From NCBI GenBank assembly GCA_944390895.1, contig CALXRQ010000005.1, forward strand, positions 983 through 64,982: 64,000 bases of DNA, in the 5' to 3' direction. The DNA is from an uncultured Alphaproteobacteria bacterium (GTDB lineage Bacteria; Pseudomonadota; Alphaproteobacteria; RF32; CAG-239). The notes under the pieces were generated by a model that was not told the DNA's origin, searched no databases, and was given only the letters and a program-made list of their open reading frames with translations. This document shows, piece after piece, positions 55,183 to 61,830 of the stretch (within the stretch, counting starts at the first letter, position 1; each line of letters begins with the position of its first letter). A program made the position numbers and the translations under genes.

Positions 55183-58100
55183 TCAAAACTTCCAATTAAC
55201 GCCGGCATCTATCTGCCAGCCGCCGTCATCTTCAATGTATTTATTGTAACGGCTGTAGAGGTTAAACTGCTGATACTGATATTCGGCACCGACCGAGAGA
55301 ACCGTGCGGTTACGCTGCACCTTATAACTGTTCAGCCCGTATTCGCCGGACATTCCAGCCATTCTGGCCGAAAGATTGGCATAAGGATCGCCAAATTCAT
55401 GATAGAAAGTGCCGCCGGCTCGCAATCTGACTTCATGATTTTCACCCAGCGCGAAAGTTTTCTTGGCATAAAGACCTATACCGGCCTCAACCGACAAATT
55501 ATTGGCGGCGTCAATATCAAGCTTGCCATCTTCCTTCATATCGTCCTGATAAAGTCCCAAAATGTTAAATTCGATAATCGGCTCAAAAACCAGCGCTTCC
55601 AAATCAATCTCCCGGCGCAGTTCATTGGCAATGCCGTAATAATAAACGTCCGTGTCCGCCCCGAAAACGTTTCCGTCGGCATAACGTCGGTAATCGCCCC
55701 AGCCGTATCCCAACCGCGGCGTAGAAATAAAACTGTAGGTATCGTCCTGATACAATACCGGCGCAAAAAGCTGAACAATGTTTTCATCCCGGCTGCCGCG
55801 ACCGTCATATTTGCTGTCAAACCGGGTATAACTCAAACCGAAACCATAACGCCAATAAGCGTCATATTTACGGTCAAAAATACCATAGACCGTGCTGACA
55901 TCGTCTTTATAGCCCGCCAATGTCGCCGTTCCGTCCTGCTCGCGGTACATATAGTCATACCCGACAGTTGCGCGTTCTTCCTTGGTATCGGTATTGTTCA
56001 ACACCGTATTGTTGATATTGCGGTTCAAGCTCTTGATCACATCCAGATTCTGCTTGGCAAAATTCGGAAAGAAATCCAGCCCGAGTTCGGTTGAAGCCTT
56101 GGCATTCAAACTACTGTGTGCCCCGGCTGTTTTCAAATCGTCATACAAATCTACGCCGTTGCCGGCAACATAGTTTTCTTCCAGAAATGCCGCCGCCGAC
56201 TTATTGTCAATAATATCGTCAAACGCCTTTCTGTTCATAACCACATCCTGACTGCCGTCGCCGCCGTCCTTAAGCGAAGCCTCAAACATATAAGACGCCG
56301 ACGTCAACTCAATCCCCGTGTCTTCACCGACAAAAGCCTTTTCGCTGACATAGGAATCTTCATTGCTTCCGGTAACAATGTTGTTGGAAGCATATACCTT
56401 TCCGCTGATTTCCGGAGCATTAAAAGTTCCGCCTTTCATCAGATAAACGCTGCCGTCGCCAAAACTGTTCAAATCCAGCGCAGCGTCAGAAGTCGTACTG
56501 CCGGCGTTTTCATAAATGGCGCCGTTTTCAAGACAGATGAATGAATCGCACTGCGAGGCTCCCGTATAAGCTTCCGAACCCACTTTTTGCGACACATTGG
56601 TCATATTCGCATCAGTAATTTTTATGGTACCGTTGTTCTGAATGGCCGAACCGATGCCGCTGGCATACATAGCCGTATTATTGTCGCCTTGCATAAGGAT
56701 CGTACCGTCGTTAATTGCCCTGGCTGCCACCGTAATAACGCCGTTTTCGTCTTTGAGCGAAGCATTGTCATATTCTACCTTCATACCATAGGCGTTGTTG
56801 GATTTGACAATCAACTCTCCGCTGTTGGTTATGGTTCCGGCACCCGACAAAGACATCCCGACCACGCTGCCGCTGTTTTTGTAAGCCGCATTAATTTCAA
56901 TCTTGCCGGAATTGGTCAGCGTTGAATCCGTAGACGTAATCGTCGACGAATCATCTTCCGTTTCGGCAAAATAATTGCCGGCTCTCATGGCGGCAATCGT
57001 TTCTGCTTTGCCGTCATTATCATTAATGGTAATTGTCCCCTCATTGGTCAGCGTACCGGCGTCTTCCGCCCACATCGCCGCCAGTCTGGCTGTCGCCGCC
57101 CCGTTGTTGTCTAAAACGATTTCGCCCTTTTCGCCGTTTGTTGCTGTCATGGTGCTGAATACCTTCTGATCCTCAATCACCAATCCGGTTTCCGTATACA
57201 TGGCGTAAGCCTGCCCCGAAAGACTTCCGCTGCCGGCCGTATCGGAAACAACCGCAAGCTTAGCCTTGTTGTCAAAGGTAACGGAAGCAGAATTTTCTCC
57301 GTCATTACGTCCAATCATTCCTGCGGAAGAAACGTTCATCACACCGCCCTCGGCATTGGTAACCGAGGCCGAAGTTGTCGTCACGCCGATTTCGGCCGTC
57401 ACAGTACCGCTGTTTTCCACAGACCCCGAAGCCAGAGAGAAACCATATTGGCTTGCCGTAATCGTTCCCGCATTTTTAAATGTGCCGGATCCGGTTGACA
57501 TCATAGCTGCTTCTCCGGTCGCCGTAATATCAGCGCCTTCGGCATTGGTCAGACTGCCCGAAGACGTGCTCATGCCGACCGAAGCCGTCACCGTACCTTT
57601 GTTTTCTCCGGAAGAAGAAGCCATAATGCCCGTGCCTCCGTCTGCGGAAACGCCGCCTTCATTGACCACCGTATCGCCGGAAAGGCCGTTGCCGTCGGAT
57701 ATAACGGTTCCCTTATTGGTGACGCTGCCACCCGAAATCGCCGTTCCGCTTCCCTTGATTTCCACCAGCGCGCCCAATCCGTTGGTAACGCTGCCGCTCG
57801 CCGTATAAATGCCGGTGCCGCCGTTGGTCATGGTAATGGTGCCGTTGTTCTCAACATCGCCGCTGCTGTCGGTCTTAATACCGTAGTTTCCGCCGCTTCC
57901 GCTGCCGCTGACTTCGATTGTGCCGTTGTTAATCTGCTTGCCTTCACCAATTTCCATACCGACACCGCCGCCGGAAACGGTTATTTCCTTATTATTGGTA
58001 ATATTACCCTTTTTCACATAAATGCCGGTGCCGCCCTGCCCCGAAGCAACCACATTGATTTTTCCGTCATTGGTAACGTTTGCCTCTTCAGAAACCCAGA

Positions 58101-59256
58101 TGCCGGACGCAGCGCCGGCCAGATCGCCGGTTCGCGCGCCGCTGACGATAATCTTGCCGCTGTTGTATATGTCGCCTTTTCCCCACAACCAGATACCGGT
58201 ACTGTTATCCCCGGCAATGTCAATAACGCCGCTGTTGGCAATCTTGCCGACCGTAGACGAGAAAATACCCATGCTCTGCGGCGCGATAATCTTAATCGTC
58301 CCGGCATTATTAATATCTCCGACCGTGGGATTGGCGGCATCAACCAGACAAGACGTATTTCTCGGATCGTAAATGTCAACAATACACGACATTATGCCCT
58401 TGGCATATTTGTTGGAAGACGTAATGGTAATATCACCCGTATTGTAAACATATCCGTTTTTGGAATAAATGGCTCCCCAGTGGTCAAGAGACACGTCTGC
58501 GGCCGAATTGTTGGTGACGGTTATATCCTTGTTATTGATAATGTTTTTATTCTCCGGCATATAAAGGCCCCAGTAGTCGCTTTGGCTGCCGCCGGCTGTT
58601 TCCACCACATCTTTGTTGATATTCTCGGCCACGACATACGGCGGAGCATTAACGCCGTTCATTCCGTCAATGTTTTTGACTTCATCGTCATCATCGTCGC
58701 TGTTGCTGCTCAAAATCAGCGCCACCGTACCGCCGACCAGCGCAACGCCGCCGATGGTCCACGCCGTTGTCGACGAAATCAGCGGTTCTTCATGAGGATC
58801 ATAGGCGATATAACCCAGATTCCGGTTGGAAGACATTTGTTCTATATTGGCAAAATCCTTGGCATTATACTTATATGCCTTGGACGTATTTTGCGCCGCA
58901 GCGGCCTGTTGCCTGTAGACCGGCGGCCGTCTCAACCCTTCGTTAAAAGCGATTTTTCTTTCGTCGGGAATACGGGAAACACAGGAATGGTTGATATCGG
59001 CTCCCAAACTTCTGAATGTTCGGAAAGCCGTATAGTCACTCTTCCAAACCGCAATGCACAAACCGGTATTGCCCTGAGCGTCAACGCTGTCTATGTCAAG
59101 CCCGCGATTGACGGCGTCGGCCAGAACTTTGCTTTTGCCCTGAGCCGCAAAATTATACATGGCGTCAAAATTGGCCGGCGCCAGCCCCGCATCCGCCGGA
59201 CTCGCCCATAAACAAAGGCCCAGAACGCCTGACATTAAATTAATTTTGCGAACCAA
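55183..59256 (-). CDS. autotransporter (type Va) with Gly-rich beta-helix passenger, N-terminal ankyrin repeats and C-terminal beta-barrel
   Basis: C-terminal roughly 280 aa barrel ending GVNWKF. Passenger is full of G(S/T)GI / NxG repeats. N-terminal signal peptide (TTG start; alternative ATG at 59235). D.QGNTGL..AV......GADINH ankyrin signature. Confidence 0.85.
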   Translation of the reverse strand: MVRKINLMSGVLGLCLWASPADAGLAPANFDAMYNFAAQGKSKVLADAVNRGLDIDSVDAQGNTGLCIAVWKSDYTAFRTFRSLGADINHSCVSRIPDERKIAFNEGLRRPPVYRQQAAAAQNTSKAYKYNAKDFANIEQMSSNRNLGYIAYDPHEEPLISSTTAWTIGGVALVGGTVALILSSNSDDDDDEVKNIDGMNGVNAPPYVVAENINKDVVETAGGSQSDYWGLYMPENKNIINNKDITVTNNSAADVSLDHWGAIYSKNGYVYNTGDITITSSNKYAKGIMSCIVDIYDPRNTSCLVDAANPTVGDINNAGTIKIIAPQSMGIFSSTVGKIANSGVIDIAGDNSTGIWLWGKGDIYNSGKIIVSGARTGDLAGAASGIWVSEEANVTNDGKINVVASGQGGTGIYVKKGNITNNKEITVSGGGVGMEIGEGKQINNGTIEVSGSGSGGNYGIKTDSSGDVENNGTITMTNGGTGIYTASGSVTNGLGALVEIKGSGTAISGGSVTNKGTVISDGNGLSGDTVVNEGGVSADGGTGIMASSSGENKGTVTASVGMSTSSGSLTNAEGADITATGEAAMMSTGSGTFKNAGTITASQYGFSLASGSVENSGTVTAEIGVTTTSASVTNAEGGVMNVSSAGMIGRNDGENSASVTFDNKAKLAVVSDTAGSGSLSGQAYAMYTETGLVIEDQKVFSTMTATNGEKGEIVLDNNGAATARLAAMWAEDAGTLTNEGTITINDNDGKAETIAAMRAGNYFAETEDDSSTITSTDSTLTNSGKIEINAAYKNSGSVVGMSLSGAGTITNSGELIVKSNNAYGMKVEYDNASLKDENGVITVAARAINDGTILMQGDNNTAMYASGIGSAIQNNGTIKITDANMTNVSQKVGSEAYTGASQCDSFICLENGAIYENAGSTTSDAALDLNSFGDGSVYLMKGGTFNAPEISGKVYASNNIVTGSNEDSYVSEKAFVGEDTGIELTSASYMFEASLKDGGDGSQDVVMNRKAFDDIIDNKSAAAFLEENYVAGNGVDLYDDLKTAGAHSSLNAKASTELGLDFFPNFAKQNLDVIKSLNRNINNTVLNNTDTKEERATVGYDYMYREQDGTATLAGYKDDVSTVYGIFDRKYDAYWRYGFGLSYTRFDSKYDGRGSRDENIVQLFAPVLYQDDTYSFISTPRLGYGWGDYRRYADGNVFGADTDVYYYGIANELRREIDLEALVFEPIIEFNILGLYQDDMKEDGKLDIDAANNLSVEAGIGLYAKKTFALGENHEVRLRAGGTFYHEFGDPYANLSARMAGMSGEYGLNSYKVQRNRTVLSVGAEYQYQQFNLYSRYNKYIEDDGGWQIDAGVNWKF

Positions 59257-61448: not shown

Positions 61449-61473
61449 AAAAAACCGCCCTGAAAGGCGGTTT
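61449..61473 (-). terminator. rho-independent terminator after tRNA-Arg
   Basis: Minus strand: aaaccgcc-tttca-gggcggttt followed by a T-run. Confidence 0.75.
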
Positions 61474-61478
61474 AGAAA

Positions 61479-61555
61479 TGGCGATCTCGAGAGGATTCGA
61501 ACCTCTGACCCACAGCTTAGAAGGCTGTTGCTCTATCCAGCTGAGCTACGAGACC
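61479..61555 (-). tRNA. tRNA-Arg (anticodon UCU)
   Basis: Hand-folded: acceptor GGTCTCG/CGAGATC (one G-U), anticodon stem ACAGC/GCTGT with loop CTTCTAA, T-arm AGAGG-TTCGAAT-CCTCT, encoded CCA. 77 nt. Confidence 0.9.
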
Positions 61556-61566
61556 ATTAGCCGAAC

Positions 61567-61772
61567 AATATTCTTCTTGGTCGGGGCAGCAGGATTGTAA
61601 TTCCCAATTCACCACTTTTCCCGGTATCTTTATCAAAACTGCTCCGAATTGGGCCCCTTTCGTTCAAGCTTGCTTCGCTCGGTAAACCTTACTCGCAACT
61701 TTCACCGACCCTAACGGTTCGCATCCTGACTTAAGTTTTAATAATATTCTTCTTGGTCGGGGCAGCAGGATT
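61567..61772 (-). repeat. 30-nt direct repeat (tRNA-Pro 3' 19 nt + 11 nt flank) bounding a 176-bp insert between tRNA-Pro and tRNA-Arg
   Basis: aatattcttcttggtcggggcagcaggatt occurs at 61567..61596 and 61743..61772. The second copy is the real tRNA-Pro 3' end. Confidence 0.85.
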
Positions 61773-61830
61773 CGAACCTACGACATCTTGCTCCCAAAGC
61801 AAGCGCTCTACCAGGCTGAGCTATGCCCCG
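61754..61830 (-). tRNA. tRNA-Pro (anticodon UGG)
   Basis: Hand-folded: acceptor CGGGGCA/TGCCCCG, anticodon stem CTTGC/GCAAG with loop TTTGGGA, T-arm GTAGG-TTCGAAT-CCTGC, encoded CCA. 77 nt. Confidence 0.9.

What the first reader, a model, noticed from the sequence alone, without database searches (positions are those of the whole stretch)
61567..61772. Third tRNA locus with the same architecture: tRNA-Pro 3' end duplicated 176 bp downstream
The 30-mer aatattcttcttggtcggggcagcaggatt occurs at 61743..61772 and again at 61567..61596. The first copy is the last 19 nt of tRNA-Pro plus 11 nt of flank. The second abuts the 5' side of tRNA-Arg. The 176-bp spacing is close to the 173-bp (Ser) and 215-bp (Val) inserts. 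The intervening DNA lacks the GCTAAG core but is structured: cccaattc (61603..61610) pairs with gaattggg (61646..61653). On the tRNA strand an 80-nt segment (61657 down to 61578) starts with GGGGC and ends with GCCCCGACCA, an acceptor-stem-like closure. Three of the four tRNAs in this window carry such an insert. That is hard to ascribe to chance and suggests recurrent site-specific recombination at tRNA 3' ends, or a tRNA-mimicking RNA class.
Basis: partly seen in the sequence, partly recalled or inferred. Interest (0 to 1): 0.62.

Follow-up and report, generated by a model that had tools for sequence, protein, structure and literature searches.

The report
Folded non-coding cassette behind tRNA-Pro
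The 176-bp segment between tRNA-Pro and tRNA-Arg is an old, diverged copy of an uncatalogued family of folded non-coding cassettes that sit behind many tRNA genes of uncultured gut Alphaproteobacteria, and it is wrapped in copies of the tRNA's own tail exactly like the long-unexplained rtT repeats of E. coli.

Summary
The repeat is real: 33 nt, one mismatch, 176 bp apart. It holds the last 19 nt of tRNA-Pro, from T-loop A58 to CCA, plus local flank.

It is not a one-off scar. About 17 of the 41 tRNA genes in this 1.68-Mb genome carry such a module.

All modules share one wrapper:
- the tRNA;
- a decayed inverted copy of its T-arm;
- a direct T-stem-5'/TTCG piece;
- a non-coding core;
- the tail A58..CCA again.

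The core here is a divergent member of a family I call type C. A covariance model built without it scores it 25.8 bits (E 7e-5). That model hits 92 of 151 genomes of the bacterial family. The fold covaries strongly, and G.U pairs put it on the tRNA strand. Rfam has no match.

The Pro subtype occurs only at this locus, in five congeners. Three congeners have clean empty sites.

The E. coli tyrT rtT repeats have the same wrapper but an unrelated core.

Best reading: an rtT-like cassette, co-transcribed with the two tRNAs, inherited vertically and lost by repeat recombination. Its origin and function are inferred, not shown.

The parts
61754..61830 (-). tRNA-Pro(TGG), intact
   Evidence: ARAGORN; Rfam RF00005, 68.9 bits
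61740..61772 (-). Direct repeat copy 1: tRNA-Pro A58..A76 (19 nt, starting in the T-loop) plus 14 nt of 3' flank
   Evidence: position numbering read from the sequence
61716..61728 (-). Decayed inverted ('mirror') copy of the tRNA-Pro T-arm. It reads CAGGATGCGAACC; the reverse complement of the tRNA is CAGGATTCGAACC (12 of 13 match).
   Evidence: The same piece is a 13/13 match in G007 and G004, and it follows the T-stem change in G010 and G009.
61706..61715 (-). Direct T-stem-5'-like strand plus the start of the T-loop (GTTAGGGTCG; tRNA CGTAGGTTCG). It forms a short hairpin with the mirror copy and abuts the core.
   Evidence: same layout in all family members
61597..61705 (-). Non-coding core, Pro subtype of family 'type C': GTGAAAGTTGCGAG..GAACGAAAGGGGCCC-[expanded hairpin]-GGGAATTAC
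   Evidence: Covariance model R1, built without this sequence, hits 61587-61719(-) at 25.8 bits, E 7.3e-5. Motif search. Orthologues in 4 congeners.
61603..61653 (-). Helix P3 of the core: CCCAATTC (61653-61646) pairs with GAATTGGG (61610-61603), enclosing a variable 35-nt tip
   Evidence: Compensatory changes among the 5 orthologues and across 48 family members
61564..61596 (-). Direct repeat copy 2: second copy of the tRNA-Pro tail A58..CCA plus flank, following the core directly
61479..61555 (-). tRNA-Arg(TCT), intact; downstream member of the same transcription unit
   Evidence: no terminator-like site lies between the two tRNAs
61452..61473 (-). Intrinsic terminator after tRNA-Arg

Best explanation
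The 176-bp unit is an rtT-like 'tRNA-tail cassette'. It is a roughly 110-nt structured non-coding core, a diverged orthologue of a family that I call type C.

The core lies between G57 and A58 of the T-loop of a second, partial copy of the tRNA-Pro 3' region. A decayed inverted copy of the T-arm precedes it.

Shown:
- the anatomy;
- homology to the family;
- a covarying fold on the tRNA-sense strand;
- restriction of the Pro subtype to one orthologous locus in five congeners;
- clean empty sites in three other congeners;
- the same wrapper in the E. coli rtT repeats.

Inferred:
1. The cassette entered once, in an ancestor of the genus. Either recombination within the tRNA tail or a snap-back replication error produced the direct-inverted-direct layout.
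2. It has since been inherited vertically. It was lost in G003, G001 and G012 by recombination between the two tail copies.
3. No terminator separates tRNA-Pro from tRNA-Arg, so the cassette is transcribed inside the Pro-Arg precursor. tRNA-processing enzymes then release it as a small folded RNA that ends in an authentic tRNA 3' tail, as RtT is in E. coli.
4. Its conserved unpaired motifs (GAAAGGGGCCC, GGGAATTTACA, GATAGTTGG) are recognised by an unknown partner.
For: Anatomy.

Genome-wide recurrence: four core families share one wrapper.

Family membership:
- The motif occurs in 27 of 151 genomes, with 0 hits for the reversed control pattern.
- Model R1 hits 92 of 151 genomes and 19 of 23 genera.
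- R1 hits the window copy at E 7.3e-5.

Fold:
- 95.7% of cells are paired against 80.2% when shuffled (0 of 500 shuffles reach it).
- The covariation score is 0.471 against 0.205, and at most 0.066 when partners are slid.
- Twelve of 18 pairs show changes on both sides.
- G.U pairs fix the strand.

Pro subtype:
- It occurs in five genomes, all at the Pro-Arg locus.
- Helices show compensatory changes.
- The left 86 nt are 86-97% identical between species, against about 72% for the tRNA-Gln locus region.

Empty sites: G003 (flanks 96-99% identical), G001 and G012.

Transcription unit: no terminator lies between the tRNAs.

E. coli: the tyrT-tyrV spacer and the rtT units have the inverted T-arm copy, AAGGTTCGA, a core, then ATCCTTCCCCCACCACCA.

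Orientation: 22 of 48 distinct copies sit behind a tRNA on the same strand, covering 10 tRNA species.
Against: - No expression data.
- The window copy alone folds no better than shuffled sequence (z -0.34).
- Most canonical copies lie behind a strong terminator, so their transcription would need read-through.
- Nine copies sit in the loops of REP-like hairpins and are near-identical within a genome. That looks like DNA mobility rather than an RNA gene.
- G.T wobble is also tolerated in single-stranded DNA hairpins, so the covariation does not prove an RNA.
- The duplicated flank is identical within each genome but differs between genomes. That requires either gene conversion or more recent rearrangement than simple vertical descent.
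Confidence: 0.55

Rival explanations
1. Inert integration scar. The segment is what remains of an integrative element that a recombinase inserted into the T-loop/3' end of tRNA-Pro. This would be a cis-mobilisable element (CIME)-like remnant, that is, an integrase-less element bounded by attachment sites. The two tail copies would be attL and attR. The core would be only the element's att-proximal end, with no function of its own.
For: - Direct repeats of the tRNA tail flank the insert.
- Tails also bound gene-bearing cassettes: 0.8-2.7 kb between two type-C cores in relatives, and a 2.6-kb islet at tRNA-Trp in this genome.
- Large serine recombinase genes lie just downstream of tRNA genes in relatives. 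One is next to a type-C module.
- Where the two terminators differ, the insert brought its own.
Against: - The fold covaries in three helices, and the core is better conserved than neighbouring DNA.
- Genomes with 9-14 copies have only Xer-like tyrosine recombinases.
- G000 has no serine recombinase at all.
- Junctions next to the serine recombinase genes lack the inverted copy.
- Four unrelated cores and E. coli rtT share the wrapper, so the wrapper, not an element end, is the constant.
Confidence: 0.2
2. Non-autonomous transposon that targets hairpin loops. The core would be a protein-less mobile DNA that inserts, as single-stranded DNA, between G and A of a loop (T-loop TTCG^A; REP-like loop CTTG^A). 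A trans-acting nuclease or transposase of the HUH superfamily, of the IS200/IS605 or IS91 type, would move it. Its fold would be a DNA fold recognised by that enzyme. Insertions would survive only in spare copies of the T-arm.
For: - In G121 and G021, five to six near-identical cores sit in REP-like hairpins. The stems differ between copies but stay complementary. Uninterrupted hairpins with a CTTGA loop lie nearby.
- The junction is the same in tRNA copies, after ..YG and before A.
- The layout resembles IS200/IS605 ends (own knowledge). The left boundary lies about 17 nt before a hairpin, and the right boundary 7 nt after one.
Against: - The Y1 transposase is absent from G021 and G121, and its presence does not track copy number.
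- The IS200-like element of G000 has unrelated ends.
- The one orthologous comparison I tried did not give a core-only empty site.
- The Pro subtype is single-copy and confined to one locus.
- This model does not explain the inverted copy or the tail duplication.
Confidence: 0.15
3. tRNA-like RNA or decayed tRNA gene: the spacer holds a pseudo-tRNA closed by an acceptor-like stem, GGGGC/GCCCC.
For: GGGGC (61657-61653) can pair with GCCCC in the tail copy. The unit ends in a true tRNA 3' tail.
Against: - ARAGORN and the Rfam tRNA model find nothing in the spacer.
- GGGGC is part of an invariant family motif whatever the tRNA.
- The inverted T-arm copy cannot form a T-arm on the other strand (read from the sequence).
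Confidence: 0.03

Closest known systems
E. coli tyrT-locus 178-bp repeats / RtT RNA (rttR; Rfam RF00391)
   Same: - Each unit ends with the last 19 nt (A58..CCA) of the upstream tRNA.
- Each begins with a decayed inverted copy of the T-arm and acceptor strand, which forms a hairpin with a direct T-stem-5'+TTCGA piece.
- The core between them is non-coding.
- Units occur singly between two tRNA genes and in tandem after them.
- They lie in the tRNA transcription unit.
- RtT is reported to be processed from the tyrT transcript, with an unknown mode of action (bioRxiv 10.1101/2024.07.17.603846; own knowledge of Bosl & Kersten 1991).
   Different: - The core sequence and fold are unrelated. RF00391 gives no hit here, and model R1 gives none on the E. 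coli locus.
- The host phylum-level lineage differs.
- The E. coli units overlap a tiny annotated ORF (tpr); nothing comparable was examined here.
Integrative elements in tRNA genes and their integrase-less derivatives (cis-mobilisable elements, CIMEs; tandem island arrays such as the Dehalococcoides ssrA islands)
   Same: - Direct repeats of the tRNA 3' end bound the insert.
- The tRNA stays intact.
- Arrays accrete at one tRNA.
- Strains are polymorphic for filled and empty sites.
   Different: - The content is only about 146 nt and holds no gene.
- The core has a conserved covarying fold.
- An extra inverted copy of the tRNA 3' part is present.
- The duplicated block includes local flank of variable length (26, 33 and 85-104 nt).
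- The genome has no resident integrase.
REP/REPIN elements and palindrome-associated transposable elements (PATEs, derived from IS200/IS605)
   Same: They are small, gene-less, hairpin-rich and multi-copy. Some type-C copies sit in the loops of REP-like hairpins.
   Different: - No correlation with Y1/RAYT-type transposases.
- A multi-helix fold with conserved unpaired motifs.
- tRNA-specific wrapper sequences.
Tandem inversion duplication / origin-dependent inverted-repeat amplification (direct-inverted-direct triplications formed by replication switches at short inverted repeats; PMC4689423; Kugelberg et al. 2010, own knowledge)
   Same: The wrapper runs direct (tRNA 3' part + terminator), then inverted, then direct. 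The junctions lie at hairpins: the terminator, and the variable-loop/T-stem region.
   Different: The scale is tens of nucleotides rather than kilobases. The third copy always carries a core in its T-loop, which that model does not explain.
Small RNAs processed from tRNA precursors (for example 3'ETS-leuZ of E. coli; own knowledge)
   Same: A spacer of a tRNA operon that would be released by tRNA processing enzymes.
   Different: Those RNAs carry no copy of the tRNA tail. They act by base-pairing as sponges, and no target is evident here.

Membership tests
Type-C tRNA-tail cassette family (defined here; model R1) | Match to a covariance model built from 14 other members | tested here: met
   window 61587-61719(-): 25.8 bits, E 7.3e-5 over 232 kb searched. 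This is weak compared with canonical members (60-113 bits).
Type-C tRNA-tail cassette family (defined here; model R1) | Conserved motifs GAAAGGRRCCC ... GGGAATT(T)ACA flanking a covarying hairpin, followed at once by A58..CCA of the upstream tRNA | tested here: met
   the window copy reads GAAAGGGGCCC-[hairpin]-GGGAATTACA + ATCCTGCTGCCCCGACCA
Type-C tRNA-tail cassette family (defined here; model R1) | The 3-bp covarying helix GGA[NNN]GATAG / ACG(N)[N'N'N']GAAAG | tested here: inconclusive
   The Pro subtype has a deletion here (GGTGA-AAGTTG), and the model leaves gaps at this point. It has instead a helix GA(G/A)AGUUGC/GCAAGCU(C/U) with one compensatory change.
RtT RNA (Rfam RF00391) | Score at or above the family's gathering threshold | tested here: not met
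   No RF00391 match in the window at the gathering threshold, nor at E<=1 on 9 loci including this one.
RtT-like architecture (tyrT 178-bp repeats) | The unit ends with the last 19 nt of the upstream tRNA, and starts with an inverted T-arm copy plus a direct T-stem-5'/TTCG(A) | tested here: met
   E. coli K-12 locus read directly and compared with the window.
tRNA / tRNA-like gene | Cloverleaf detected by ARAGORN or Rfam RF00005 | tested here: not met
   Only the two flanking tRNAs are found.
Integrative element remnant (attL/attR) | Direct repeats of the tRNA 3' end bounding the insert | tested here: met
Integrative element remnant (attL/attR) | A cognate integrase in the element or the genome | tested here: not met
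   G000 has two Xer-like tyrosine recombinases only and no serine recombinase.
IS200/IS605-derived PATE / REPIN | A Y1 (HUH) transposase or RAYT co-occurs, and the ends match those of an autonomous element | tested here: not met
   PF01797 is absent from the multi-copy genomes G021 and G121. The ends of the IS200-like element in G000 C29 are unrelated.
Retroelement (tRNA-primed) | A reverse transcriptase in the genome | tested here: not met
   PF00078: no match in G000.
Stable small RNA | A detectable transcript with defined ends | not testable with these tools

The most novel reading that the evidence does not exclude
The wrapper is: tRNA, inverted copy of its 3' part, direct T-stem-5'/TTCG, any core, then A58..CCA. 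It may be the footprint of one cargo-independent process that places structured non-coding modules, and sometimes genes, into the T-loop position 57/58 of a spare tRNA 3' part.

This process would operate in E. coli (rtT), in gut Alphaproteobacteria and, according to unchecked notes of this scan, in Patescibacteria. Its products would be a hidden class of small RNAs that carry authentic tRNA 3' tails.

Type C would then be the first member with enough copies to solve the fold and find the partner. That would also explain rtT.
Probability: 0.3. Interest if true: 0.8.

Novelty: new variant of a known kind. Interest (0 to 1): 0.62.

Why it matters
The rtT repeats behind tyrT in E. coli have been known since 1978 and still have no accepted origin or function. 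This work shows that the same peculiar wrapper surrounds at least four unrelated core families. It does so behind about 40% of the tRNA genes of a small gut alphaproteobacterial genome.

One of these core families has hundreds of copies and a clearly covarying fold, yet it is absent from Rfam.

That turns a single-organism curiosity into a comparative problem. The fold can now be modelled, and the conserved unpaired motifs point to a binding partner. The contrast between tRNA-linked copies and REP-loop copies offers a test of whether the element acts as RNA or as mobile DNA.

For annotation, it explains a frequent cause of contig breaks and of 'duplicated tRNA ends' in these metagenome-assembled genomes.

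Tried and rejected
- Rfam at the gathering threshold on the window, and at E<=1 on nine loci: only tRNAs, with no RtT, ribozyme or sRNA family.
- Reverse transcriptase: none in the genome.
- Phage-type integrase: only two Xer-like genes in G000. Across 151 genomes, the number of tyrosine recombinases does not track the number of type-C copies.
- Y1 transposase: common in the family but absent from the genomes with the most REP-embedded copies. The ends of the IS200-like element in G000 are unrelated.
- Serine recombinases: none in G000. Some lie next to tRNA genes in relatives, but their junctions lack the inverted copy, so I could not tie them to the small modules.
- An orthologous empty site for a REP-embedded core (G021 against G073). 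The relative lacks about 293 bp including neighbouring repeats, so it is not a clean test.
- Single-sequence folding of the window spacer on either strand: no better than shuffles.
- Model R1 on the E. coli rtT locus: no hit, so there is no core homology.
- ORFs between paired cores: miscellaneous small and membrane proteins, and no shared enzyme. These were not run through Pfam.
- Literature: four full-text searches found no description of this family or of the wrapper.

Full report
**Observation**

The 30-mer occurs exactly twice in the 64-kb window, at 61567-61596 and 61743-61772. None is expected in shuffles. It extends to 33 nt with one mismatch.

tRNA-Pro(TGG) lies at 61754-61830 and tRNA-Arg(TCT) at 61479-61555, both on the minus strand. 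The copy inside tRNA-Pro covers its last 19 nt. In standard numbering that is A58 in the T-loop to A76, so the repeat begins exactly between G57 and A58. The remaining 11-14 nt are local 3' flank.

**Genome-wide census**

The window is contig C5 of a 1.68-Mb, 56-contig, 47% G+C genome with 41 tRNA genes.

- Eleven tRNAs have a copy of their last 17 nt, with at most 3 mismatches, within 450 nt downstream. I estimate about 0.001 by chance.
- Twelve have an inverted copy of their T-arm within 450 nt downstream, most of them 26-56 nt from the tRNA end.
- Counting decayed copies and copies split by contig ends (Asn-GTT, Lys-CTT, Lys-TTT, Val-GAC, His, Met), about 17 tRNAs carry a module.

Read on the tRNA strand, every module has the same wrapper:
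- the tRNA;
- usually a bidirectional terminator;
- a decayed inverted copy of the tRNA 3' part;
- a short hairpin turn;
- a direct copy of the T-stem 5' strand plus TTCG;
- a non-coding core of 65-200 nt;
- A58..CCA again, often with a terminator.

The cores fall into at least four unrelated sequence families. The Pro module and the tRNA-Gln(CTG) module share one of them, which I call type C.

**The type-C family**

- Motif search. GAAAGGRRCCC-N(8-130)-GGGAATT(N)ACA occurs in 27 of 151 genomes of the same bacterial family. The reversed control pattern gives no hits.
- Covariance model. R1 was built from 14 members, none of the Pro subtype. It finds hits in 92 of 151 genomes, in 19 of 23 genera, with up to 14 copies per genome.
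- Outside the family. R1 hits only 5 of about 397 other genomes of the class.
- Public species genomes. An exact-pattern scan returns 79 stretches. Nearly all are from uncultured gut Alphaproteobacteria (Ca. Enterousia, Ca. Scatocola and similar).
- The window. R1 detects the window copy at 61587-61719(-), 25.8 bits, E 7.3e-5.
- Rfam 15 has no matching family, RtT included.

**Fold**

On 48 distinct copies:
- 95.7% of cells pair, against 80.2% in shuffles (0 of 500 reach it).
- The covariation score is 0.471, against 0.205 in shuffles and at most 0.066 when partners are slid.
- Twelve of 18 pairs show changes on both sides.

A 3-bp helix takes five complementary forms: GCG/CGC, GUC/GAC, AUC/GAU, GCU/AGC and GUU/AAC. 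The helix AGUU/GGCU is only weakly supported.

Frequent G.U pairs would be C.A on the other strand. One P3 position reads AU in 25 copies, GU in 16 and GC in 5. This places the fold on the tRNA-sense strand.

Between the helices lie invariant unpaired motifs: GAAAGGGGCCC, GGGAATTTACA, GATAGTTGG and CTTACG.

Its 'acceptor-like' GGGGC is part of the invariant motif and is present whatever the tRNA, so that closure is coincidental.

**Context of copies**

Of the 48 distinct copies:
- 22 lie behind a tRNA on the same strand (10 tRNA species);
- 5 lie in arrays and end in ..CCA;
- 9 lie in the loops of REP-like hairpins;
- 9 lie at contig ends;
- 3 are in other contexts.

In every tRNA-linked copy, the core is followed at once by that tRNA's own A58..CCA.

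In G121 and G021 the cores are near-identical within a genome. They sit as GTCAT..CCGG-CTTG|core|A-CCGG..ATC. The stems differ between copies but remain complementary, and uninterrupted hairpins with a CTTGA loop lie nearby. The junction is therefore the same in both contexts: after ..YG and before A of a hairpin loop.

**History of the Pro locus**

The Pro subtype occurs in only five genomes, all of this genus and all between tRNA-Pro(TGG) and tRNA-Arg(TCT).

Spacer lengths:

| Genome | Spacer (nt) | State |
|---|---|---|
| G000 | 198 | filled |
| G007 | 244 | filled |
| G004 | 245 | filled |
| G010 | 280 | filled |
| G009 | 342 | filled |
| G002 | 147 | left part only |
| G003 | 22 | empty |
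| G001 | 21 | empty |
| G012 | 38 | empty |

- G003 has flanks 96-99% identical to G000 and carries exactly one copy of the 33-mer.
- The duplicated block contains local flank and varies in length: 33 nt in G000, 26 nt in G007 and G004, and 85-104 nt in G010 and G009.
- In G010 and G009 the T-stem reads CCCGC, and both the tail copy and the inverted copy follow that change.
- The left 86 nt of the module are 86-88% identical between G000 and the other four, and 92-97% among those four. The tRNA-Gln locus region is about 72% identical between the same genomes.
- The five orthologues show compensatory changes in P3 and in a GA(G/A)AGUUGC/GCAAGCU(C/U) helix.

This fits an old resident under constraint, lost by recombination between the tail copies. 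It does not fit recurrent insertion.

**What is inserted**

At tRNA-Gln(CTG), six congeners have one module, one has two in tandem, three have 3'-truncated modules and two are empty. Where the two terminators differ, in G012 and G007, the distal one resembles the terminator of the empty site. The inserted block is therefore [tail copy + own terminator + inverted copy + T-stem-5'/TTCG + core].

**Enzymes**

- G000 has two Xer-like tyrosine recombinases, no serine recombinase and no reverse transcriptase.
- Genomes with 9-14 type-C copies often have only the two Xer-like genes.
- Y1 transposases are common in the family but absent from G021 and G121.
- Large serine recombinase genes lie downstream of tRNA genes, convergent with them, in several relatives. 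One is 92 nt from the tail copy of a type-C module. Their own junctions lack the inverted copy.
- Cassettes between paired cores encode miscellaneous small proteins and no shared enzyme.

No mobilising enzyme is identified.

**Comparison with E. coli**

The tyrT-tyrV spacer and the three rtT units of K-12 read as follows:

..GGGGAAGG(G/A)TGAGAA(C/G)CTTCGAC-(T/C)AAGGTTCG(A/G)(C/T/-)T(C/T)GAGCG..core..AATAATCC (tyrT-tyrV spacer) or GAGTAATCC (rtT units), then TTCCCCCACCACCA

That is an inverted decayed copy of the T-arm and acceptor strand, a direct T-stem-5'/TTCGA piece, a core of about 65 nt, then the last 19 nt of tRNA-Tyr. The wrapper is the same as here. The core is unrelated.

One preprint states that rtT RNA is involved in processing of the tyrT transcript, that its mode of action is unknown, and that the region is enriched in exonuclease-resistant DNA under stress (10.1101/2024.07.17.603846).

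**Mechanism**

The direct-inverted-direct order, with junctions at hairpins, is what replication switches at short inverted repeats produce (tandem inversion duplication; inverted triplications, PMC4689423). That model does not explain why the third copy always carries a core at position 57/58.

The constant feature across four core families and E. coli is the site and the wrapper, not the ends of the cargo. This argues against a single transposase that recognises element ends. It argues for a process aimed at the T-loop.

At the Pro locus no terminator separates the two tRNAs. The module must therefore be transcribed within the precursor, and tRNA processing should release it.

I rank the readings as follows:
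1. a functional rtT-like RNA cassette;
2. an inert integration scar;
3. a hairpin-loop-targeting DNA element;
4. a tRNA mimic, which I consider excluded.

**Limits**

- The window copy alone is not thermodynamically distinctive.
- The covariation alignment was fitted to the model.
- The notes of earlier agents were used as leads only.

Noticed in passing
G000 contig C10:43206-45908 (outside the window): A 2.6-kb AT-rich islet behind tRNA-Trp is bounded by a roughly 35-nt direct repeat of the tRNA tail plus terminator. It holds a 386-aa ORF and smaller ORFs, with no recombinase. Its distal repeat includes a contiguous decayed T-arm, and no inverted copy is evident.
   Followed up: partly
G000 contig C29:24683-25034; also C8, C13, C14, C25, C35: REP-like hairpins GTCAC/TNCCGG-CTTGA-CCGGN occur at least six times in the genome. 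One cuts short the only IS200-like Y1 transposase gene. The same hairpin type hosts type-C cores in its loop in other genera.
   Followed up: partly
G000 contigs C43:11609-11684 (tRNA-Lys CTT) and C42:4672-5204 (tRNA-Pro CGG): Two tandem units of about 205 nt of another core family follow tRNA-Lys(CTT). Two different core families lie in series behind tRNA-Pro(CGG). Several contig ends (C4/C49, C31/C27, C52/C42, C3) fall inside such modules, so the modules break the assembly.
   Followed up: partly
L182 (G021:C5:36000-47500), L185 (G090:C1), L183 (G045:C25): Large serine recombinase genes (480-570 aa) lie a few hundred nt downstream of tRNA-Thr(GGT), tRNA-Ser(GGA) and tRNA-Gln(TTG), convergent with the tRNA. 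In G021 the motif GCAGTCCGAT, which resembles the T-arm of tRNA-Thr(GGT), lies between the type-C module and the recombinase gene.
   Followed up: partly
window 55183-59256 (-): A 1357-aa ORF with a long glycine/serine/threonine-rich repetitive passenger and a C-terminal beta-barrel-like end, resembling an autotransporter. It was not analysed.
   Followed up: no
L059 (E. coli K-12 1286709-1287622): The rtT units differ at a few positions inside the inverted copy and the T-loop-like piece (for example TTCGATTCGAG, TTCGACTCGAG, TTCGGCTCGAG, TTCGACTTGAG). The tail copy is invariant in all four.
   Followed up: no
L106, L127 (genome-contig hits): Two short contigs (2.8-2.9 kb) with the type-C motif are binned into Muribaculaceae and Alistipes metagenome-assembled genomes. 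This is probably mis-binning of alphaproteobacterial contigs.
   Followed up: no
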